The position numbers were made by a program, and so were the translations under genes. The notes beneath the pieces are model-generated. The model worked only from the letters and a program-made list of their open reading frames with translations. It searched no databases and was not told where the DNA came from. Shown piece by piece: positions 18,572-31,603 of a DNA stretch of 64,000 nt. The DNA comes from Gemmatimonadaceae bacterium (lineage in GTDB: Bacteria > Gemmatimonadota > Gemmatimonadetes > Gemmatimonadales > Gemmatimonadaceae). The stretch's first letter is position 1; every line of letters begins with the position of its first letter. The DNA lies in NCBI GenBank assembly GCA_051859245.1, contig JBHYGA010000001.1, positions 928,001 to 992,000 on the forward strand, read 5' to 3'.

Positions 18572-21045
18572 CAGACGCGCGCCTCCGTTGTTGCCGTACG
18601 ACGCGCTGAGCGGCGAGCGGGCGCCGCCGGCTGCTTTGTCAGCGCATCAGCAACGGCGGGCACCGATTGCGGCATCAATGCATGCTCGAGCACTTCATCC
18701 ATCGATCGCACCGCGTGCCACGTCACACCGTCGCGTGCATCCGTTGGCATCTCGGACAACTCACGCGCATTCGCAAACGGCACAATCACTGCGGACATAT
18801 GCTGCCGGTGCGCAGCCACGCCCTTTTCACGCAAGCCACCAATCGGCAACACACGACCGCGCAATGTGACTTCGCCCGTCATGGCCACATCACCGCGCAC
18901 CGCACGTCCGGTGAGTGCACTCACCATGGCGGTGGCCATCGCAATACCAGCCGACGGACCGTCCTTCGGTGTCGCGCCAGCGGGGACGTGCACGTGCAAA
19001 TCATGACGTTGCAGCGTATCTGCGGCGAGACCAAGACTCTCCAGTCGCGAACGCACCCACGTAAGCGCCGCCGACGCCGACTCTTTCATCACATCGCCGA
19101 GTGTTCCGGTGAGCTGTAAACGACCACGTCCCGGGATCACACTGACTTCAATCTCCAGTATCTCACCGCCAACCGAGGTGTAGGCCAGGCCATTCGCCAC
19201 GCCAACACGGTTTTCAGTACTCGCCATCTCCGCATCGTACGGCGCTACACCCAGATACTCGGCCAGCTGCGCTTCTGTCACGGTGATTGGCAACGCAATA
19301 TCGCCACGCTCCGCGATCGCACGCGTCAGCTTGCGCACCAGCCGCGCAACGCGACGCTCGAGATCCCGCACGCCAGCCTCGCGTGTCCAACCGCGCAGCA
19401 TCGCGGTGAGCACCGCGTCATCGATCACCACATCCGTGGCGGCGAGTCCATGCGCTTCGAGTTGACGCGGCACGAGATAGCGAGAGGCAATCGCGAGCTT
19501 CTCCGGTTCGAGATAACCAGGCAAGCGCACCACTTCCAGACGATCACGCAACGCCTCGGGAATGCCGGGCAGTGAGTTGGCGGTTGTGATGAACAACACC
19601 TGCGACAAATCGTAATCCACTTCGAGATAGTGATCGGCGAACGCGCGATGCTGCTCTGGGTCGAGCACCTCGAGCAGTGCCGAAGCCGGATCTCCGCGCC
19701 AGTCGCTGCCCAGCTTGTCGAGCTCGTCGAGCAACAAGACGGGATTCGTCACCTCTGCACGACGCATTGACTGAATCAGCCGACCGGGAAGGGCGCCCAC
19801 ATACGTGCGGCGATGTCCGCGAATTTCGGCCTCATCTCGCACACCACCAAGCGAGATGCGCACGAACTTGCGACCCATGGCGCGCGCAATGCTGCGCGCG
19901 AGCGACGTTTTACCAACACCGGGAGGACCAACGAGACAGAGAATCGGTCCACGCACAACGCCCACACGCGAGAGCACGGCAATGTGATCGAGAATGCGTT
20001 CTTTGACTTCGGCGAGGCCGTAGTGATCGGCATCCAGCACTTCACGTGCAGTGGTGATGTCGAGGACGTCATCACTCTTTTCGTGCCATGGCAGCGCGGC
20101 AATCCAGTCGAGCCAGCCGCGTGAGACCGCGGCTTCAGGCGACATGGGCGACAACTTGCGCAGGCGGCGAATTTCACGCGTGGCGCGCGTTTGAATGGCC
20201 TCAGGCAGCTTGCGCGCGGCCAGTTGCAACTCGAGTTCGGCGAGCTCGTCACCGTCATCGTTGCCGAGTTCCTTGTGAATCGCCTTGAGCTGCTCCTGCA
20301 GAAAGAACTCGCGTTGATTCTGGAACAGTGAGCCGCGCACCTGATCATCAATGCGACGTTCGAGGCGCAGCAATTCGAGTTCACTCACGAGCACTTCCGC
20401 CACGCGATCGACCAACTCCGCGAGCGACGGTTTGGCGAGCAGTTCCTGACGGACATCGAGAGGCAGCTGCAAATGCGCGGCGATGCCGAAGATCACGCGT
20501 TCGGGATCTTCCAGTGACTGGAGCACACCAACGATTTCCGGCGGCGTGCGACGCTGCAGCCCGGCGTACTCTTCGAACAGCGAGAGTGTGTGGCGTATGC
20601 GAACCGCGAGCTCGGTGAGCCCGTCGTGCGGAAGCTCAAGCGGATACGAACGCACGGTCGCGTGCACCGGCAGCGCGATGCGCGGCGCTCCTTCGTCGCT
20701 CTTGACCTCGCGCGGAAGGGTAAAGCGCGTAATGAGCACACGCTCTTTCGCATCCACGAGGATGCGCGTGGTGCCGTTGGGCATCCGCGTGACATGCTGC
20801 ACGCGCGCGACCACACCGACACGATGCAGCCCTGTTGCGGCGGGCTGTTGATCGTCGGGGTTGCGTTGCGTGACAAGCAGGAGTTCGCGATTCCCTTCAG
20901 CAGCGGCTGCCACAGCAGCGAGCGAACGGGAGCGCCCCACCAGCAGGGGCATGGCCGCATGCGGAAACAGCACAACATCACGCAGCGGCAGAACGGGATA
21001 CCGCGTTGGCGAGTCGCCAGGACGCGGGGCAGGGCGTGGGCTCAG
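18571..21045 (-). CDS. lon: Lon protease (endopeptidase La); start probably a CTG at 21045
   Basis: Walker [16 protein letters not shown] and catalytic PKDGPSAG; the conserved N-terminal [12 protein letters not shown] begins upstream of the first ATG/GTG/TTG (20973). Confidence 0.95.
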
Positions 21046-22310
21046 GCTTCCTTCTTCTGGCGCTTGGGCGCGATCTCCAATAGCGGCGGTCCGCCTCGGG
21101 TGACCGATGCCTCGGTGACTTTCACTTCCACAATGTCATCACGACTTGGCAAGTCGAACATTGTTTCGAGCAGTGTTTCTTCGAGAATGGCGCGCAAACC
21201 ACGCGCACCGGTGCCGCGACGCAGCGCCTTCTCGGCAATCGCACGCAGCGCCGATTCTTCGAACGTGATTTTCACGTCTTCCAGATCGAACAAGCGCTGG
21301 TACTGACGCACCAAGGCGTTCTTCGGCTCCTTGAGAATCTGTACCAACGCCGTTTCGTCGAGCGCGTCGAGCGGGACGCACACCGGCATACGGCCTACGA
21401 GTTCCGGAATGATACCGTAGCGCAGCAAGTCTTCCGGCTCCACTTCAGAGAACGGCGACTTGGCGGTCTCGTTCACCACACCTTCGAGCGGCTCGAGCTC
21501 CGTCTTTTCCGGTCCACCAAATCCGATCTGCCGACGACCAACGCGCGCTTCGATGATCTTTTCCAGGCCATCAAACGCGCCGCCGCAAATGAACAGGATG
21601 TCCTTGGTGTTGATCTGAATGTATTCCTGCTGCGGGTGCTTGCGACCACCCTGCGGCGGCACGGATGCAACAGTGCCTTCGAGGATTTTCAGCAGCGCCT
21701 GCTGCACACCTTCGCCCGACACATCACGCGTGATACTCGGGTTCTCCGATTTGCGCGCGATCTTGTCGATTTCGTCGATGTATACAATGCCGCGTTCGCA
21801 TTCGGCCACGTTGAAATCGCCGGCCTGCAACAAACGTACAAGAATGTTTTCGACGTCTTCGCCAACGTAGCCCGCTTCGGTGAGCGTGGTCGCGTCGGCA
21901 ATCGTGAACGGCACATCGAGAATACGCGCCAGCGTCTGCGCGAGCAGTGTTTTGCCAACACCGGTCGGACCAATAAGCAGGATATTCGACTTGTCGAGCT
22001 CGACATCATCTTCGCGCGCATTGGCGGCCGCGTTGATGCGCTTGTAGTGGTTGTACACGGCCACTGACAGCGCCTTCTTGGCCCGTTCCTGTCCGATCAC
22101 GTACTGATCCAGCGTCGCCTTGATTTCGCGAGGCGACGGGACCTGCGTGATCGCTTCCGTTACCTCACGCTCCTCATCTTCGGCCAGGATCTCATTGCAG
22201 AGCGCGATGCACTCATTGCAAATGTAGACCGACGGCCCGGAAATGAACTTCCGGACGGCGTCCTTGGACTTTCCGCAGAATGAGCAGCGCAGATGCTTGT
22301 CTTGGGACAT
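21042..22310 (-). CDS. clpX: ATP-dependent Clp protease ATP-binding subunit
   Basis: CSFCGK..C..C zinc finger, [25 protein letters not shown] and IGF loop. Confidence 0.98.
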
Positions 22311-22463
22311 GTCGGCGAGCAGGGGGACGGGAAACGGGGAAGACCCCGGGTAGCTATATGAACTAACCCGAAGTCGGCCGAAGGGTCAAGCTGACGGGCG
22401 GTTCTTGCTTCATTCGGACTTAGTCTCGGCGGGAGGCGAGGAAATCTGGAGGGTCAGCGGCAG

Positions 22464-22682
22464 TTCCTGATTCGGTCTTTCGGCCCAGTTGCGGGAGCCC
22501 AAGGCCATTTGGCCTTTCGGCCTCACCGTTTCGAAACGTGCACAAGGCTGAGATGCCGGGCGGTTCCGTAACGACACCTAACAGCCGGAGATGGGTGCTC
22601 CGTGCAGCCTTTCGAAAATGAGAGGCCGAAAGGCCAAATGGCCTTGGGCTCCCGCAACTGGGCCGAATGACCGAATCGGGAA
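22464..22682. repeat. Long imperfect palindrome (element A): ~73-bp arms around a ~73-nt spacer
   Basis: 22464-22536 (ttcctgattcggtctttcggcccagttgcgggagcccaaggccatttggcctttcggcctcaccgtttcgaaa) is the reverse complement of 22610-22682 with 5 differences, aligned by hand. Confidence 0.95.
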
Positions 22683-22758
22683 ACGCAACGGCGTGGAGGT
22701 GATGCTGGGTCGAGGGAAATGGTGATGGACACGCGGGATAGGTGTGCAATCCTGACCA

Positions 22759-23142
22759 ATGCGCGACTTCAGGCGGCTCTATGTGTGGCAGCAGGCGCAT
22801 GCGCTCACGTTGGCGGTGTATGCGGCGTCCTCCGACGTTCCGAGGACTGGATACCCAGGGCTCGTCACGCAGCTCCGACGAGCTGCGGCAGCGATTCCCA
22901 CGAATATCGCAGAAGGGTGCGGACACAGCTCAAGAAAGGAGTTCGCGCGCTTCCTGCAGGTCGCGGTGGCCTCGTCGGTCGAGACGGAGTATCACCTGCA
23001 ACTGTGCCATGACCTCGGCGTCATGGAAGCCGCGGCGTCCTCAAAGCTCATCGCCGACACCAACCGGGTCCGTCGCCAGATCGCTTCCCTCCTCGCCAAA
23101 GTCCGCGACGAACTCCCAAACTCGCCCCCGCGTGCCGTCTGA
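22759..23142 (+). CDS. Four helix bundle protein (23S rRNA intervening-sequence protein / Avd-like family)
   Basis: Signature F..L.VWQ.A..L, LVTQLRRAAAAIPTNIAEGCG, FARFL.VA..S..E..YHL.L..DLG; 127 aa. Confidence 0.93.
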   Translation: MRDFRRLYVWQQAHALTLAVYAASSDVPRTGYPGLVTQLRRAAAAIPTNIAEGCGHSSRKEFARFLQVAVASSVETEYHLQLCHDLGVMEAAASSKLIADTNRVRRQIASLLAKVRDELPNSPPRAV

Positions 23143-23362
23143 TTCGGTCATTCGGCCCAGTAGGCGGAGCCCATGGCCATTCGGCCTTTCGGCCTCCCGT
23201 TTTCGCAAGGCCGCACAGAGCACCAACACTGGGCTGGTCTCCGCGCCGATCAAACTGTAACCACCCGGCATTCGAGCTCGGTGCGAGCTTGCGAAAACGG
23301 GAGGCCGAAAGGCCAAATGGCCGTGGGCTCCTTCCACAACGGCCGAATGGACGAATCAGGAA
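23139..23362. repeat. Long imperfect palindrome (element B), an inverted copy of element A
   Basis: 23139-23209 pairs with 23288-23359; the reverse complement of B aligns with A over the arms and over the spacer (atgccgggYggtt; cagcc...ggtgctcYgtgcRgcctt). Confidence 0.93.
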
Positions 23363-23396
23363 AAGCAAAACGGCGGGCGCGTGAGCGCCCGCCGTT
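23361..23396 (-). terminator. Intrinsic terminator after clpP
   Basis: aacggcgggcgc-gtga-gcgcccgccgtt 12-bp stem (23369-23396); on the minus strand it runs into TTTTGCTTTT. Confidence 0.85.
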
Positions 23397-23417
23397 CCAA
23401 ACTCGAACAGAGAAAAA

Positions 23418-24044
23418 CTAGTTCTTCGCCGCCGCTGCTGCTGCGACCAGCTCAGCATCCGTGGCGATCACATTATCAATCAGGCCGTACACCTTAGCCT
23501 CTTCCGCCGACAGGAACCGATCGCGGTCCGTATCCCGCTCGATCTGCTCCACCGGCCGGCCCGTGTGCTTGGCCATCAACTCATTCATCTTCGCGCGGAG
23601 ATACAGGATCTCGCGCGCCTGAATCTCAATATCCGATGCCGAGCCACCGCCGCCGTTCTGTGACGGCTGGTGAATCATCACGCGGGCGTGCGGCAGTGCC
23701 GCGCGCTTGCCGGGCTCGCCGGCGCAGAGGAGAAACGCTCCCATGCTGGCGGCCATTCCCATGCACGTGGTGTGCACGGGCGACTTGATGAACTGCATCG
23801 TGTCGTAGATCGCCATGCCGGCCGAAACGCTGCCGCCGGGCGAGTTGATGTACAGGTTGATGGGCTTGTCCGGGTTGTCGGCGTACAGGAACAGCAACTG
23901 CGCGATGATCACATTGGCCACATCGTCATTCACCGGCGTGCCGAGAAAGACAATGCGGTCCATGAGCAACCGCGAGAAGATGTCGTACGACCGCTCACCG
24001 CGGGACGAGCGTTCAATGATGTACGGCGTGTAAATCGTGGGCAT
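23418..24044 (-). CDS. clpP: ATP-dependent Clp protease proteolytic subunit
   Basis: [18 protein letters not shown], catalytic Ser in AASMG, IHQP and DRDRF. Confidence 0.97.
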
Positions 24045-29612: not shown

Positions 29613-30791
29613 GTGATTTCAACCATCCTCGATCCCGTCGCCACCCGCGCACTCGCGCCTGAACTTGCCACCTCGCGTAGCCCGGACCTCTGGGTCTACC
29701 GATACCAGGAGCCCACGCACGGTTGGGTGCTGAGCGTTGCCACACACGCCGCGCCTGGCAGTGGACACCTTTCGCTCGGCGGCTTTCGCATTGCGCCCGC
29801 CGAACGCATGGCGTCTCCCGGATTCACCCCCGAACGTGAATCGATAGCGCTGGCGATCGGTATGGAGGAGAAGGTCTGGTGGTCGCGGGTGACCGGAATT
29901 GGTGGGCCGCTCGCCAAGCACCAACTCGCCCGAATCGTTGGCGGCAAATGTGTCCTCGCGCCAACACCGGGATCACGCGTGGGCGAGCCACTCGACACCG
30001 CGCTGCTCGATTTTGCGGTGGCCGCATTTCACGACATTGAATCCACCGCTGGTATTCATCTGATCACCGGACAGGACCTCGGTCACGGCACGATGACCAC
30101 CGGTGAGAGTTCGTTGTCGTATCTGAACGAGCGGTACCGTGGCAGCGTGCAGGCCAACACCGCGGTTCCCACCGGCGAGGGCAATGTGCAGCTACTGCTC
30201 GGCATGCTGCGCGGTATCGGGCGTGACGTGCAACACGCTACGATCGGGCTCGTGGGGTGCGGTAACATTGGCATGCACGTGCTCGGTCGGCTGCGGGCGC
30301 TCGGTGCGAGCGTCATTGTACTCGAATCCAATGCGGACCGACGCACACAGCTGAGCGAACAGGGCATTCGTTGCTGGGCGCCCGCGCAGCGCGCCGACTT
30401 TCTCGCGCAACCGGTCGACGCGATTGTGGTGAATGCGTTGGGTGGATCACTCGACGCGACGGCGGTTGCAGCGTGCGTGGCCAATCCAAGACTCGCGGTG
30501 ATCTGCGGCAGTGAAAACCTGGTAATGCCGGACGCATCACAAGCGCTCGTGCTGCAGCGCGCGGGCAAGATCTACGCGCCCACTGAACTCGGTGGCATGG
30601 TGGGTTACCTCACCGCGGTTGAGGAGTACCTGGCCAAGCAGTCCGGCCGCGCGTTTGCAGAAGAAGACTTGTTTGATGCGGCGCAGGAGCTTGAACTCGT
30701 GGGCTACGAAGCCACGCGACGCGTGCTCGACTCACACGGCGCACTATCGTTCGAAGACGCGGTCGTAACGCTGCATCCGGTGGTGAAGTAG
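29613..30791 (+). CDS. Divergent Glu/Leu/Phe/Val dehydrogenase-like protein
   Basis: Family-like motifs GGFRI, GMEEK, GGKCVL, TGQDLG, NAD-binding GCGNIG, NALGG and YAP. Confidence 0.7.
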   Translation: MISTILDPVATRALAPELATSRSPDLWVYRYQEPTHGWVLSVATHAAPGSGHLSLGGFRIAPAERMASPGFTPERESIALAIGMEEKVWWSRVTGIGGPLAKHQLARIVGGKCVLAPTPGSRVGEPLDTALLDFAVAAFHDIESTAGIHLITGQDLGHGTMTTGESSLSYLNERYRGSVQANTAVPTGEGNVQLLLGMLRGIGRDVQHATIGLVGCGNIGMHVLGRLRALGASVIVLESNADRRTQLSEQGIRCWAPAQRADFLAQPVDAIVVNALGGSLDATAVAACVANPRLAVICGSENLVMPDASQALVLQRAGKIYAPTELGGMVGYLTAVEEYLAKQSGRAFAEEDLFDAAQELELVGYEATRRVLDSHGALSFEDAVVTLHPVVK

Positions 30792-30820
30792 CGCGTTACT
30801 CGGACGCGACAGCAACCTGA

Positions 30821-31603
30821 TTACCGCGCGCGGAACGCTGCAATCGCGTCGCGCGTGAAATCGGAGAGCACCATCGCACCACTCATCGCCGCACGTTCTG
30901 CGAGCAGCGGCTCCCATGCCTCGGTGCCGCTCCAGAACACGCGCTTGAGTTCACGCATTGCGTCAGGATTGGACGCGGCCAGTGTGCGCGACAATGCGTC
31001 CACGGCACCGTCAAGTTCGACTGTGGACTCAACCACGCGCGCGTAGAGTCCGTGACGTTCGCACCACTCCGCGTCGCGCCAGTCGGCGTCCACCGACATG
31101 GCGCTGAACGGGCCGCGTCCAACGCGTCGCTCAACAACGGTGCCCACCACAAACGGTCCGATGCCCACGGCCAACTCACTGAGGCGCGCGGCCGCCGAGC
31201 GAACCGCGATTGCGTAGTCTGATGCTGACACGATGCCCACCGCGCCGCCTGCCGCTTTGCCGTGCACCCGCGTCACCACAAACTTGGGGGCGCGAATCAT
31301 GGCCAGAATCACCCGCGAGAACCCGCTGAAAAACTCCGCGCCCTGGGCCGCGTCGCTGATCGAAGAAAACTCGTCGAAGGAAGCGCCGGCACAGAACGGC
31401 CCGCTGCCACCACTGCGCAGTACGATCACGCGGGCGTCATCGTTTTCGCCGAGCGTGGTGATGGTCTGCGCCAGTTCGCGAAGCAGCGCGCCCGGCAGCG
31501 AGTTGCCTTTGGGATGCGAAAACTCGATCGTGCCGATCCCGTCGGCGATGGAAACCGAAACCCGTCCCTCGGGCACGGAATGAAGCGGAGCGTCGTTGGC
31601 CAT
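30821..31603 (-). CDS. Enoyl-CoA hydratase/isomerase (crotonase) family protein
   Basis: FCAGAS, PK.V...VHG.A.GG..G and LSELAVGIGP; start at MANDAP, divergent from paaA. Confidence 0.88.
   Translation of the reverse strand: MANDAPLHSVPEGRVSVSIADGIGTIEFSHPKGNSLPGALLRELAQTITTLGENDDARVIVLRSGGSGPFCAGASFDEFSSISDAAQGAEFFSGFSRVILAMIRAPKFVVTRVHGKAAGGAVGIVSASDYAIAVRSAAARLSELAVGIGPFVVGTVVERRVGRGPFSAMSVDADWRDAEWCERHGLYARVVESTVELDGAVDALSRTLAASNPDAMRELKRVFWSGTEAWEPLLAERAAMSGAMVLSDFTRDAIAAFRAR

What the first reader, a model, noticed from the sequence alone, without database searches (positions are those of the whole stretch)
22464..23362. Four-helix-bundle (IVP/Avd-like) gene enclosed by two inverted ~220-bp hairpin elements, inserted between clpP and clpX
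Seen: element A (22464-22682) and element B (23139-23362) are each a ~70-bp-stem palindrome. The reverse complement of B matches A along its whole length, including the non-palindromic spacer (A atgccgggcggtt vs B-rc atgccgggtggtt; A cagccggagatgggtgctccgtgcagcctttcgaaaa vs B-rc cagcccagtgttggtgctctgtgcggccttgcgaaaa). The outer ends are perfect inverted repeats, TTCCTGATTCG / CGAATCAGGAA. The gene is antisense to the host operon. Established: this protein family was first found in 23S rRNA intervening sequences, is structurally related to the DGR accessory protein Avd, and has no settled function; clpP and clpX are normally adjacent. Inference: this is a self-contained protein plus structured nucleic acid unit, architecturally like a REPIN-flanked RAYT locus but without an HUH transposase. 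It could be a new mobile cassette, or a system in which the protein binds or processes its flanking hairpins (for example IVS-like RNase III excision from a read-through tig-clpP-clpX transcript).
Basis: partly seen in the sequence, partly recalled or inferred. Interest (0 to 1): 0.9.

Follow-up and report, generated by a model that had tools for sequence, protein, structure and literature searches.

The report
Four-helix-bundle gene with partner hairpin repeats
A small gene of the kind known from ribosomal-RNA intervening sequences sits between two mirror-image copies of a long hairpin repeat that is scattered through this genome. Related bacteria carry related genes, each flanked by its own scattered repeat family, so these poorly understood proteins may be the partners of bacterial hairpin repeats.

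Summary
A single-copy PF05635 (23S-rRNA-IVP / Avd-like) gene lies at 22759-23142 (+), between clpX and clpP. It is bracketed by two ~235-bp long-hairpin elements in inverted orientation.

- **Dispersed repeat:** the hairpins are not private to this locus. They belong to the commonest dispersed repeat in the genome's k-mer survey: 18 internal sites, plus arms at 14 of 22 contig ends.
- **Only one IVP gene:** the genome has a single PF05635 gene. No Y1/RAYT, IS110, DDE_Tnp_1 or reverse-transcriptase gene was found.
- **The pattern repeats:** in 8 of 8 IVP-arm pairs tested in this and a sister genus, the arms flanking the IVP gene belong to a dispersed repeat family (near-)specific to that lineage. 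Two IVP paralogues in one genome each have a different family.
- **Concerted change:** elements at sites shared by two species look like their genome-mates, not like each other.
- **Insertion:** the cassette lies between the conserved clpX promoter region and the clpP terminator. Four relatives have an empty 205-246-bp spacer there.

Best reading (0.5): a REPIN/RAYT-like partnership in which the basic protein, probably a pentamer, recognises its hairpins. The biochemistry is unknown.

Against it: this genome also holds hairpin families with no IVP gene.

Earlier windows of this scan found IVP-plus-inverted-repeat cassettes on other DNA. My five literature searches found no paper describing them.

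The parts
21042..22310 (-). clpX, the host gene on the left of the cassette
   Evidence: 422-aa ORF with ClpX zinc-finger and AAA_2 domains.
22311..22456 (-). clpX leader and promoter-like region. It is conserved in relatives that lack the cassette, and its outer end is the left insertion boundary.
   Evidence: It aligns with the empty spacers of G012, G013, G003 and G005. The promoter reading (TTGACC ... TAGTTC on the minus strand) is mine, by eye. The sigma-70 scan found none.
22457..22689 (.). Hairpin element A, a member of the dispersed ~235-bp long-hairpin family (fam1)
   Evidence: Arms of 73 nt at 93% complementarity. ssDNA fold -101.4 kcal/mol, z -16.7. Family copies are listed.
22690..22758 (+). 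69-nt leader between A and the IVP start codon; presumed promoter and 5' UTR
   Evidence: The sequence shows it. No consensus promoter was found. A gap of roughly 7-270 nt (mostly 60-170) between the upstream arm and the start recurs in relatives.
22759..23142 (+). IVP gene: a 127-aa basic four-helix-bundle protein (PF05635), the only one in the genome
   Evidence: PF05635 at E 1.4e-28. One match in the genome. AF2 model pLDDT 94.1 with four helices. Foldseek hits 2gsc, 2rld and Avd 4dwl. pI 9.7. dN/dS 0.06-0.24.
23132..23369 (.). Hairpin element B, an inverted copy of the same family; its left end overlaps the IVP stop codon
   Evidence: Arms of 68 nt at 85% complementarity. ssDNA fold -91.3 kcal/mol, z -13.7. 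The orthologue in G002 has a loop 81% identical to that of G002's A in inverted orientation.
23366..23399 (-). Intrinsic terminator of clpP. It touches B's outer end and marks the right insertion boundary.
   Evidence: Terminator scan: 15-bp stem with 10 G-C pairs and a T tail. A GC-rich hairpin stands at the same place in the empty-site genomes (by eye).
23418..24044 (-). clpP, the host gene on the right of the cassette
   Evidence: 208-aa ORF, CLP_protease at E 5.5e-83.

Best explanation
The 913-bp insert (22457-23369) is an 'IVP cassette'. It consists of a vertically inherited gene under purifying selection, encoding a basic Avd/Xcc0516-type four-helix-bundle protein, and two inverted copies of a long-hairpin repeat that flank it.

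That repeat family is scattered through the chromosome, and protein and repeat family form a specific, heritable partnership. This is the same genomic signature that defines RAYT transposases and their REP/REPIN repeats, but the protein here has no known transposase fold.

Proposed working (inferred, not shown):
1. The protein, probably a pentamer as in the solved relatives, recognises the conserved arms of its own hairpin family. The arms would be in folded single-stranded DNA or RNA.
2. Its own mRNA should run into hairpin B, which would favour action in cis.
3. Binding keeps the family alive: it preserves the arms, homogenises copies and seeds new sites. The cutting and joining is probably done by host replication or recombination functions.
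4. When the gene is lost, orphan hairpin families remain.

Shown here: the architecture, dispersal, lineage specificity, concerted change, insertion with empty sites, and selection on the gene.
Inferred: binding, the direction of causation, and every biochemical step.
For: **Anatomy and copy number**
- Anatomy is confirmed.
- The hairpin family has 18 internal sites, plus arms at 14 of 22 contig ends, in G000.
- It is the largest family in a genome-wide 18-mer survey.
- There is one PF05635 gene in G000, and 2 of the 18 internal sites flank it.

**Generality of the enclosure**
- An inverted repeat tightly encloses the IVP gene in 15 of 20 relatives' loci.
- It does so in 44 of 80 public loci, including Acidobacteriota, Bacteroidota, Ignavibacteria and an alphaproteobacterium.
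- Only 4 other inverted-repeat pairs with a 300-900-nt gap occur elsewhere in those 80 loci.

**Dispersal of the flanking arm in its own genome: 8 of 8 tests**

| Family (source of the arm) | Matches |
|---|---|
| G000/G002 type | G000 72 (40 in the 41-genome search), G002 42; G006 10 and G004, G008, G014 1 each, all weak; 0 in the other 35 of 41 |
| G008 type | G008 75, G014 63, G007 35, G001 2 (weak); 0 in the other 11 of 15 |
| G005 type | G005 48, G013 1; 0 in 13 |
| G010 type | G010 25; 0 in 4 |
| G012 type | G012 51; 0 in 4 |
| G001 type | G001 37; only 30-nt hits in G004 and G006; 0 in 2 |
| G022 type (another genus) | G022 31, including the flanks of two further IVP copies; 0 in 4 |
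| Second IVP paralogue of G008 | G008 36, G014 27; 0 in G000, G002, G007 |

**Specificity within one genome**
- Two IVP paralogues in one MAG, 43% identical, have unrelated arms.

**Concerted change**
- At 4 sites shared by G000 and G008, the elements are 58-61% identical. That equals the between-genome background of 52-63%.
- Copies within a genome average 74% (G000) and 78% (G008). At two of these shared sites the flanking DNA is 78-86% identical.
- At least 4 G008 sites have no element in G000.

**Constraint on the arms**
- Arms are 86% identical among 427 non-orthologous pairs; loops are 38%.
- 17 of 61 stem pairs carry compensatory changes.

**The gene is functional**
- dN/dS is 0.06-0.24 in 9 pairs.
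- All 18 aligned IVPs are basic, pI 8.7-11.3.
- The fold matches pentameric 2gsc and 2rld, and Avd in the DGR ribonucleoprotein (8ub7), where the relative holds a structured RNA.

**No other candidate mobiliser found in G000**
- None of PF01797, PF00078, PF01548 or PF01609 was found. There is one rve locus, at C5:215 kb, about 30 kb from the nearest element.

**Gene-less hairpins where relatives keep an IVP cassette**
- The G005/G013 cassette site holds a fam2 element in G000.
- The site of the second-paralogue cassette in G001/G010 holds three GC-rich palindromes in G000.
Against: - G000 and G002 also carry a second long-hairpin family: fam2, about 22 sites, found only in these two of the 15 genus genomes. 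G000 also has inverted (GCAGAGGC)n arrays and GC-rich palindromes. None of these has an IVP gene beside it. Hairpin families can therefore exist here without a resident IVP, unless they are orphans or are served in trans.
- No catalytic motif or enzymatic relative is known for this fold. The conserved polar residues (Q38, R41, N49, E52, S72, E75) are unexplained.
- No recent movement is shown in the G000 lineage. All 17 G002 loci examined correspond to a G000 element site, a G000 contig end bearing an arm, or one collapsed mini-hairpin.
- A and B show no 'master copy' signature. Their arm identity to the consensus is 0.94 and 0.86, within a range of 0.84-0.98.
- Gene and repeats are both inherited vertically, so their joint divergence across species is not independent evidence. 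Only the case of two paralogues in one genome escapes this.
- Most relatives are fragmented MAGs, and match counts are not copy numbers.
- No target-site duplication was seen (by eye).
Confidence: 0.5

Rival explanations
1. Hairpin-seeking selfish cassette. The IVP gene, with a short leader, is a small selfish insertion that homes into or between pre-existing palindromic repeats. Some IS elements target REP sequences in this way, and rRNA intervening sequences replace helix tetraloops. Under this reading something else spreads the repeat families, and the IVP ends up flanked by them only because they are its landing sites.
For: - Hairpin families without any IVP exist in G000.
- One intergenic site (G000 C4:1057549-1057874) holds a fam2 element in G000, G008-type elements in G008, and hairpin-IVP-hairpin in G005/G013.
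- According to Warrier et al. 2016 (PMC4990558, passages read), rRNA IVSs replace a helix tetraloop with an extended stem-loop.
- ISPpu9 inserts into REP sequences (PMC12288879, abstract in the listing).
Against: - In G000 the gene lies outside both hairpins, next to their termini, and not in a hairpin loop.
- In G010 the dispersed unit is a non-palindromic 140-nt sequence found mostly as single copies, yet the IVP is flanked by two inverted copies of it.
- Arm type follows the IVP subfamily across different loci and genomes. By eye, GGCC-rich hairpin arms go with the clpX-type IVPs, and tandem 55-59-nt GACGG-rich arms go with the second paralogue in G001 and G008.
- The cassette interior is single-copy, with no partial copies elsewhere in G000.
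Confidence: 0.2
2. RNA-level module only. The arms exist to form double-stranded RNA or terminator structures that insulate or process the IVP transcript, through RNase III cleavage as in rRNA IVSs. The genome-wide copies are ordinary REP-like terminator or stabiliser elements with no link to the protein.
For: - RNase III excision at the terminal stem is documented for rRNA IVSs (PMC4990558, passages read).
- Both hairpins fold strongly as RNA: whole unit -517 kcal/mol, z -16.9, with A and B as two local hairpins.
- 6 of 18 copies lie within 70 nt of a terminator-like hairpin, against 205 of 2000 random positions.
Against: - It does not explain why 8 of 8 IVP genes are flanked by inverted copies of a dispersed, lineage-specific family.
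- It does not explain why two paralogues in one genome have different families.
- The cassette sits between a terminator and a promoter-like region that are present without it, so no host transcript needs rescuing.
Confidence: 0.12
3. Passenger gene in a composite element. Two MITE-like hairpins captured an unrelated small gene, and an unidentified transposase acting in trans moves both the hairpins and the composite.
For: - The termini (TGATTCG, GCAGTT / AACTGC) are the best-conserved part across the families of G000, G002 and G008, as transposase-binding ends would be.
- fam1 and fam2 share the GCAGTTCC motif (by eye).
- In G008, a pair of small genes that looks like a toxin-antitoxin pair is bracketed by two such elements.
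Against: - No Y1, IS110, DDE_Tnp_1 or RT gene was found in G000, and only one rve locus, about 30 kb from the nearest element.
- The passenger is an IVP in 8 of 8 independent families, which chance capture does not predict.
- No target-site duplication was seen.
Confidence: 0.1
4. Coincidence. Two copies of a common repeat happened to insert on either side of an unrelated small gene.
For: The family is abundant, and 6 of 18 copies lie within 70 nt of a terminator-like hairpin, as B does.
Against: The same layout recurs with unrelated repeat sequences in 8 of 8 tests and in 44 of 80 public loci.
Confidence: 0.03

Closest known systems
ORF-bearing intervening sequences (IVS) of 23S rRNA (Leptospira, Coxiella burnetii; S23p ORF)
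   Same: - The protein family is the same (PF05635).
- The gene lies between terminal inverted repeats that can form a long stem.
- It is regarded as a selfish element, sporadic among relatives and then inherited vertically.
- The suggestion that the ORF encodes a mobility component dates from 1993, as cited in PMC4990558 (passages read).
   Different: - This one is not in an rRNA gene. It sits between two protein-gene transcription units.
- Each arm is itself a complete 235-bp hairpin.
- The arms belong to a genome-wide, lineage-specific repeat family. The IVS paper I read in passages (PMC4990558) does not mention this, and none of my five searches turned up a paper that does.
- RNase III excision is not tested here.
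REP/REPIN repeats and their RAYT (REP-associated tyrosine transposase) genes
   Same: - A single-copy, vertically inherited gene is flanked by inverted copies of a dispersed palindromic repeat.
- Each gene lineage has its own repeat family, and two systems can coexist in one genome.
- The repeats are intergenic.
- The REPIN/RAYT features are from PMC3116915 and PMC3337134 (abstracts in listings) and from recall.
   Different: - The gene is a 127-aa four-helix bundle, not an HUH/Y1 enzyme. PF01797 was not found in the genome.
- The repeat unit is about 235 bp with 75-95-bp stems, not 20-40-bp REPs.
- No cleavage chemistry can be proposed.
Avd, the accessory protein of diversity-generating retroelements (PDB 4dwl; DGR ribonucleoprotein 8ub7)
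   Same: - The fold is the same (Foldseek TM 0.75 by query / 0.87 by target, probability 1.00).
- It is small and basic.
- In the DGR particle the relative holds a structured RNA next to an enzyme. This makes binding of structured nucleic acid the most natural activity to propose.
   Different: - Sequence identity is only 12%.
- There is no reverse transcriptase anywhere in G000.
- There are no template or variable repeats.
Xcc0516 (PDB 2gsc) and BT_0352 (PDB 2rld), solved IVP-family proteins of unknown function
   Same: - They are the closest solved relatives. Sequence search gives E 2.2e-12 to 2gsc.
- Foldseek TM-scores are 0.81-0.86 by query and 0.93-0.95 by target for 2gsc.
- Both entries hold five chains.
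   Different: No function or nucleic-acid partner has been reported for them, to my knowledge (recalled).
MITEs (for example Correia and Nezha elements) and IS elements that target REP sequences (ISPpu9, IS1397)
   Same: - Small, non-coding, palindromic elements that are dispersed and intergenic.
- A gene-bearing unit stands next to or inside palindromic repeats.
   Different: - No parent IS or transposase was found among the four families tested.
- No target-site duplication was seen.
- The loops share nothing with the cassette interior: only 8-12-nt matches at E 0.03-0.4.

Membership tests
PF05635 / 23S rRNA intervening-sequence protein (S23p, four-helix bundle) | Match to the Pfam model above its gathering score | tested here: met
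   99.6 bits against a cut-off of 33.8, E 1.4e-28, residues 6-109 covering profile positions 2-105 of 106.
PF05635 / 23S rRNA intervening-sequence protein (S23p, four-helix bundle) | Up-down four-helix-bundle fold like 2gsc and 2rld | tested here: met
   AF2 model with pLDDT 94.1 and helices 8-24, 35-54, 59-86, 91-117. Foldseek against 2gsc gives TM 0.86 by query and 0.94 by target, rmsd 1.4.
PF05635 / 23S rRNA intervening-sequence protein (S23p, four-helix bundle) | Conserved motif GxxRxxxSxxxNxxE (as given in PMC3936711, passage read) | tested here: inconclusive
   R41, N49 and E52 are present and invariant in 18 sequences. In this protein the Ser position is Ala45 and the Gly position is Gln38.
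PF05635 / 23S rRNA intervening-sequence protein (S23p, four-helix bundle) | Homopentameric ring | not tested
   Inferred only from the five chains in 2gsc and 2rld.
ORF-bearing rRNA intervening sequence (IVS) | Inserted in a helix of the 23S (or 16S) rRNA gene | tested here: not met
   It lies between clpX and clpP. No rRNA family matched within window 22000-23800.
ORF-bearing rRNA intervening sequence (IVS) | Terminal inverted repeats that enclose the ORF and can form a stem | tested here: met
   Arms 22594-22677 and 23141-23224, 84 nt, 88% complementary, 463 nt apart.
ORF-bearing rRNA intervening sequence (IVS) | Excision from the precursor RNA by RNase III | not testable with these tools
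   No RNA run was listed for this stretch.
REPIN/RAYT system (REPtron) | The gene encodes an HUH/Y1 (IS200/IS605-like) transposase | tested here: not met
   The gene is PF05635. PF01797 has no match in G000, while 6 of 14 control genomes are positive.
REPIN/RAYT system (REPtron) | The gene is flanked by inverted copies of a repeat that is dispersed in the same genome | tested here: met
   A and B, plus 16 further internal sites and 14 contig ends. The same holds in 8 of 8 families tested.
REPIN/RAYT system (REPtron) | Single copy, vertically inherited, with a lineage-specific cognate repeat family | tested here: met
   One copy in G000. It is syntenic beside clpX in 6 of 15 genus genomes. Families are lineage-specific, and two paralogues in one genome have two families.
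REPIN/RAYT system (REPtron) | Short REP units of 20-40 bp with a GTAG or CGTC tag (PMC3733652, abstract in the listing) | tested here: not met
   The unit is about 235 bp with 75-95-bp stems, and its termini read GTTGCAGTTCC.
MITE (non-autonomous derivative of an IS) | A parent IS with a transposase and the same ends in the genome | tested here: not met
   No longer element shares the ends. PF01609, PF01548 and PF01797 were not found, and there is one rve locus at C5:215 kb, about 30 kb from the nearest element. Only four transposase families were tested.
MITE (non-autonomous derivative of an IS) | Target-site duplication | tested here: inconclusive
   None was seen by eye in the flanks of 18 copies. 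Filled and empty sites between species are too diverged to give exact junctions.
Integron gene cassette / attC site | Sites of 57-141 bp with R'' (RYYYAAC) at the 5' end and R' (GTTRRRY) at the 3' end, in the same orientation on both sides of a cassette (features recalled) | tested here: not met
   The elements are about 235 bp. They read GTTGCAG at the 5' end and CTGCAAC at the 3' end, which is the reverse order and fits neither consensus. A and B are inverted relative to each other.
Diversity-generating retroelement (Avd + RT + TR/VR) | Adjacent reverse transcriptase and template/variable repeats | tested here: not met
   PF00078 has no match in G000, while 3 of 14 control genomes are positive. 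The neighbours are clpX and clpP.

The most novel reading that the evidence does not exclude
IVP/S23p four-helix-bundle proteins are the trans-acting partners of a second, transposase-less kind of hairpin-repeat replicator. Each protein recognises the arms of its own repeat family and drives their spread and copy-to-copy homogenisation through host replication or recombination.

If true, this would explain three things at once: the ORF-bearing rRNA intervening sequences, the IVP genes wedged into operons and cas loci, and many 'orphan' dispersed hairpin or short-unit repeat families in bacteria.
Probability: 0.3. Interest if true: 0.93.

Novelty: new variant of a known kind. Interest (0 to 1): 0.8.

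Why it matters
The PF05635 family is widespread and has had solved structures since 2006, yet it has no assigned function outside DGR Avd. Many dispersed bacterial hairpin repeats have no known origin or propagator. Only REP/REPINs have a named partner, the RAYT transposases.

This genus offers a clean natural experiment:
- one genome with one IVP gene;
- relatives with other IVP genes, and at least eight distinct repeat families that each flank one;
- empty sites;
- concerted change of the repeats.

That makes a specific hypothesis directly testable: that IVP proteins read their own hairpins. Binding assays with swapped protein and hairpin pairs, a gene deletion and long-read genomes would test it.

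If it holds, it gives the family a function and defines a new route by which repeats persist in genomes. It would also explain why assemblies of these bacteria break at these elements.

Tried and rejected
- **Rfam:** a search of window 22000-23800 gave only two matches far below gathering score (CsrC 16.5 against 61 bits; an Hsp70 IRES 14.6 against 80). No known RNA family.
- **RNA runs:** none was listed for 22300-23450, so no read-level test was possible.
- **Plasmid and phage collections:** no match to the 913-bp cassette in distant mode.
- **DGR-like retro-homing** as the homogenising mechanism: rejected for this genome, because no PF00078 match was found.
- **Integron attC reading:** rejected on size, core-site order and inverted orientation. 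An earlier scan note places a decayed integron 403 kb upstream. None of the element sites lies there.
- **Dispersed hairpins as cassettes that lost the gene:** the loops share only 8-12-nt matches (E 0.03-0.4) with the cassette interior, and the interior has no other copy in G000. The topology is also wrong for the regular hairpins. It fits only the 'inside-out' forms, such as C5:97896-98108.
- **Master-copy signature of A and B:** not found.
- **8-nt periodicity of the arms:** not significant for the G000 and G008 families (0.42 and 0.41 against shuffle 95% limits of 0.45 and 0.43). It is clear only for the 55-59-nt tandem units of the second-paralogue arms, and weak for a 7-nt unit in G012.
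- **Terminator adjacency:** modest. 6 of 18 copies against 205 of 2000 random positions, which are mostly coding and so a weak control.
- **Weak IVP-like tblastn hits in G000** (best E 0.005): none coincides with a site listed for any repeat family (fam1, fam2, examples). Taken as chance.
- **My crude GC3-filtered ORF calls around the copies** missed known genes, so I did not use them.
- **The search for related loci with the 18-sequence alignment** failed for lack of a conserved stretch. An 8-sequence alignment worked. This biases the 80 loci towards Gemmatimonadota.
- **PMC47033** (Ralph & McClelland 1993) is not held. What I say of it comes from its citation in PMC4990558.
Full report
**1. 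What is there**

The window lies at G000:C1:928001-992000. An earlier scan note calls the organism a Gemmatimonadaceae bacterium, and the nearest public relatives carry that label.

On the minus strand run lon, clpX (21042-22310), clpP (23418-24044) and tig. Between clpX and clpP lies a 1107-bp spacer. It holds a plus-strand ORF at 22759-23142, 127 aa, which matches PF05635 (23S_rRNA_IVP) at E 1.4e-28.

Two long palindromes flank the ORF:
- Element A: 73-nt arms, 93% complementary.
- Element B: 68-nt arms, 85% complementary.
- A's right arm pairs with B's left arm over 84 nt at 88%.

As single-stranded DNA they fold at -101 and -91 kcal/mol (z -16.7 and -13.7). The whole unit as RNA folds into the two local hairpins. 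No Rfam family fits.

Comparison with other copies shows that the elements reach about 7 nt further out than the finding stated, to 22457-22689 and 23132-23369. B overlaps the IVP stop codon.

**2. The hairpins are a genome-wide family**

BLAST of A and B against the laid genome gave 39 merged intervals:
- 18 internal sites. Seventeen are regular hairpins. One, at C5:97896-98108, is an 'inside-out' form (right arm, 38-nt spacer, left arm).
- Two fragments.
- Single arms at 14 of the 22 contig ends.

The sister species G002 bridges several of these ends, so the assembly breaks at the element. In an 18-mer survey of the whole genome this is the largest repeat family.

I aligned 30 copies: 15 of the 18 G000 sites and 15 from G002. 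I left out the two most diverged G000 copies, the inside-out forms and the partial copies.
- The arms are nearly invariant: 86% mean identity in 427 non-orthologous pairs.
- The loops are unrelated: 38%.
- 17 of 61 predicted stem pairs carry compensatory changes, concentrated at four hypervariable pairs.

**3. One IVP gene, no usual mobiliser**

PF05635 matches once in G000. PF01797 (Y1/RAYT), PF00078 (RT), PF01548 (IS110) and PF01609 (DDE_Tnp_1) match nowhere. PF00665 (rve) matches one locus, at C5:215 kb, about 30 kb from the nearest element. Only these families were tested.

**4. An insertion with empty sites**

All 15 genomes of the genus have clpX.
- The IVP gene lies beside clpX in G000, G002, G006, G007, G008 and G014.
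- G001 has a decayed fragment there.
- G003, G005, G012 and G013 have a plain 205-246-bp clpP-clpX spacer.
- In G004, G009, G010 and G011 the region is rearranged, longer or cut by a contig end.

The empty spacers align with the 146 nt left of A, a conserved leader that by eye looks like a promoter. At the far end they carry a GC-rich terminator hairpin. The cassette therefore sits between two transcription units and interrupts no transcript.

**5. The gene is maintained**

- dN/dS is 0.06-0.24 in nine pairs.
- The AF2 model (pLDDT 94.1) is a four-helix bundle. It is closest to Xcc0516 (2gsc) and BT_0352 (2rld), then to Avd (4dwl) and Avd inside the DGR ribonucleoprotein.
- All 18 aligned proteins are basic, pI 8.7-11.3.

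**6. The layout is general**

An inverted repeat tightly encloses the IVP gene in 15 of 20 loci from relatives. Of the other five, L031 and L042 have none, L032 and L033 have a hairpin on one side only, and L046 is ambiguous.

In 80 public loci the figure is 44 of 80. These loci are mostly Gemmatimonadota, a bias of the search patterns, but they include Acidobacteriota, Bacteroidota, Ignavibacteria and an alphaproteobacterium. Only 4 other inverted-repeat pairs with a 300-900-nt gap occur anywhere else in them.

**7. Each IVP has its own dispersed family**

I took the arm next to an IVP gene and searched whole genomes with it. In 8 of 8 cases it proved to be a dispersed family in that genome, and absent or nearly absent elsewhere.

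| Family | Result |
|---|---|
| G000/G002 type | G000 72 (40 in the 41-genome search), G002 42; weak hits in G006 (10), G004, G008, G014 (1 each); 0 in the other 35 of 41 |
| G008 type | G008 75, G014 63, G007 35, G001 2 (weak); 0 in the other 11 of 15 |
| G005 type | G005 48, G013 1; 0 in 13 |
| G010 type (a non-palindromic 140-nt unit) | G010 25; 0 in 4 |
| G012 type | G012 51; 0 in 4 |
| G001 type | G001 37; only 30-nt hits in G004 and G006; 0 in 2 |
| G022 type (another genus) | G022 31, including the flanks of two further IVP copies; 0 in 4 |
| Second IVP paralogue of G008 | G008 36, G014 27; 0 in G000, G002, G007 |

The second paralogue of G008 is 43% identical to the first, and its arms are unrelated to those of the first. 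Match counts are not copy numbers, and most relatives are fragmented MAGs.

**8. Turnover and concerted change**

All 17 G002 loci examined correspond to a G000 element site, a G000 contig end with an arm, or one collapsed ~60-bp mini-hairpin at C4:832710-832763. The family therefore predates the split of these two species.

Between G000 and G008:
- Four sites are shared, and at least four G008 sites have no element in G000.
- At the shared sites the elements are only 58-61% identical, which is the between-genome background (52-63%).
- Genome-mates average 74% and 78%. At two of the shared sites the flanking DNA is 78-86% identical.

So the elements are homogenised or replaced within each genome.

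**9. Evidence that cuts the other way**

G000 and G002 also share a second long-hairpin family, fam2. It has about 22 sites, for example C1:716380-716574, and was found in no other genome of the genus. G000 also has inverted (GCAGAGGC)n arrays and GC-rich palindromes. None has an IVP gene beside it.

Two observations soften this:
- The site where G005 and G013 keep their hairpin-IVP-hairpin cassette holds a fam2 inside-out element in G000.
- The site where G001 and G010 keep the second-paralogue cassette holds three GC-rich palindromes in G000.

These families may therefore be orphans of lost IVP genes. The same facts also fit a cassette that homes to existing hairpins.

**10. Reading**

The best-supported statement is a specific, heritable partnership between an IVP gene and a dispersed repeat family. 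This is the signature that defines RAYTs and REPINs, with an unrelated protein. I put 0.5 on the version in which the protein acts on the hairpins.

The rivals are:
- a hairpin-seeking cassette (0.2);
- an RNA-only module (0.12);
- a passenger gene in a composite element (0.1);
- chance (0.03).

Binding, mechanism and direction of causation are all inferred.

**11. What is known**

Warrier et al. 2016 (PMC4990558, passages read) describe the rRNA IVS as a selfish element. It has terminal inverted repeats, an S23p ORF and RNase III excision. They cite the 1993 idea that the ORF serves mobility.

IVP genes have been noted inside cas loci (PMC3936711, passage read; PMC10910872, figure legend).

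Five searches found no paper that links this protein family to dispersed repeats.

Earlier windows of this scan reported IVP genes bracketed by inverted repeats on other DNA. This window adds several things:
- the eight-fold dispersal test;
- the case of two paralogues in one genome;
- the empty sites;
- the concerted change at shared sites.

Noticed in passing
G000:C1:716380-716574 (outside the window); about 22 sites, listed: A second long-hairpin dispersed family (fam2). Its arms are built of TTCGTGnnn units, and it occurs in both regular and 'inside-out' forms. It is shared only with G002 among 15 genus genomes, and no IVP gene lies beside any copy. Its arm ends share the GCAGTTCC / GGAACTGC motif with the termini of the A/B family.
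   Followed up: partly
G000:C1:693095-693235 and about 10 further sites (outside the window): Inverted arrays of the 8-nt unit GCAGAGGC around loops of about 110 nt, dispersed in the genome, with no IVP gene. They resemble the short-unit arrays that earlier scan notes found around IVP genes elsewhere.
   Followed up: no
G000:C9:76214-77142 (outside the window): Three GC-rich palindromes of about 125 nt, from a dispersed family, stand exactly where G001 and G010 carry their second-paralogue IVP cassette. They may be orphans left after loss of the gene.
   Followed up: partly
L156:1780-3260 (G008:C92): Two near-identical direct copies of an 'inside-out' hairpin element bracket about 900 bp holding two small ORFs. 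By eye and from recall these look like a HigB/HigA-type toxin-antitoxin pair. The site corresponds to G000 C4:1057.5k, which holds a fam2 element in G000 and the IVP cassette in G005/G013. It looks like a hot spot where small cassettes are exchanged.
   Followed up: no
G000 contig ends (14 of 22); L129, L131, L136, L138, L141: The assembly breaks at the hairpin element. G002 contigs bridge G000 C2-end to C11-start, C6-end to C7-end, C10-end to C4-end, C11-end to C8-end, and C2-start to C5-start.
   Followed up: partly
G000:C8:93456-93675 versus L133:2001-2224 (G002): The loop of this orthologous element pair is inverted between the two species: 77% identity when flipped against 60% in the same orientation. 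This is as expected from recombination between the arms. It was seen in 1 of 8 orthologous pairs.
   Followed up: partly
window 30641-30821 (G000:C1:958641-958821): This 181-bp stretch is the empty counterpart of the site where G009 carries its ~1.1-kb IVP cassette. No inverted repeat is present here.
   Followed up: partly
G000:C1:65929-69636 (outside the window): A 3.7-kb segment directly beside the element at C1:69651 has no counterpart in the otherwise collinear G002 contig. Other element sites also border stretches that differ between the two species (L128, L132).
   Followed up: no
L173:1141-1353 (G001): A decayed IVP fragment (56% identity over residues 81-119) and an arm remnant of the G008 type lie upstream of clpX. 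The upstream neighbour is not clpP but a different gene, so the region was rearranged at the cassette.
   Followed up: partly
L041:223-1842 (G010): The IVP reading frame here has no stop codon at the usual place and runs on for 539 codons. It could be a lost stop or an accident of high G+C content.
   Followed up: no
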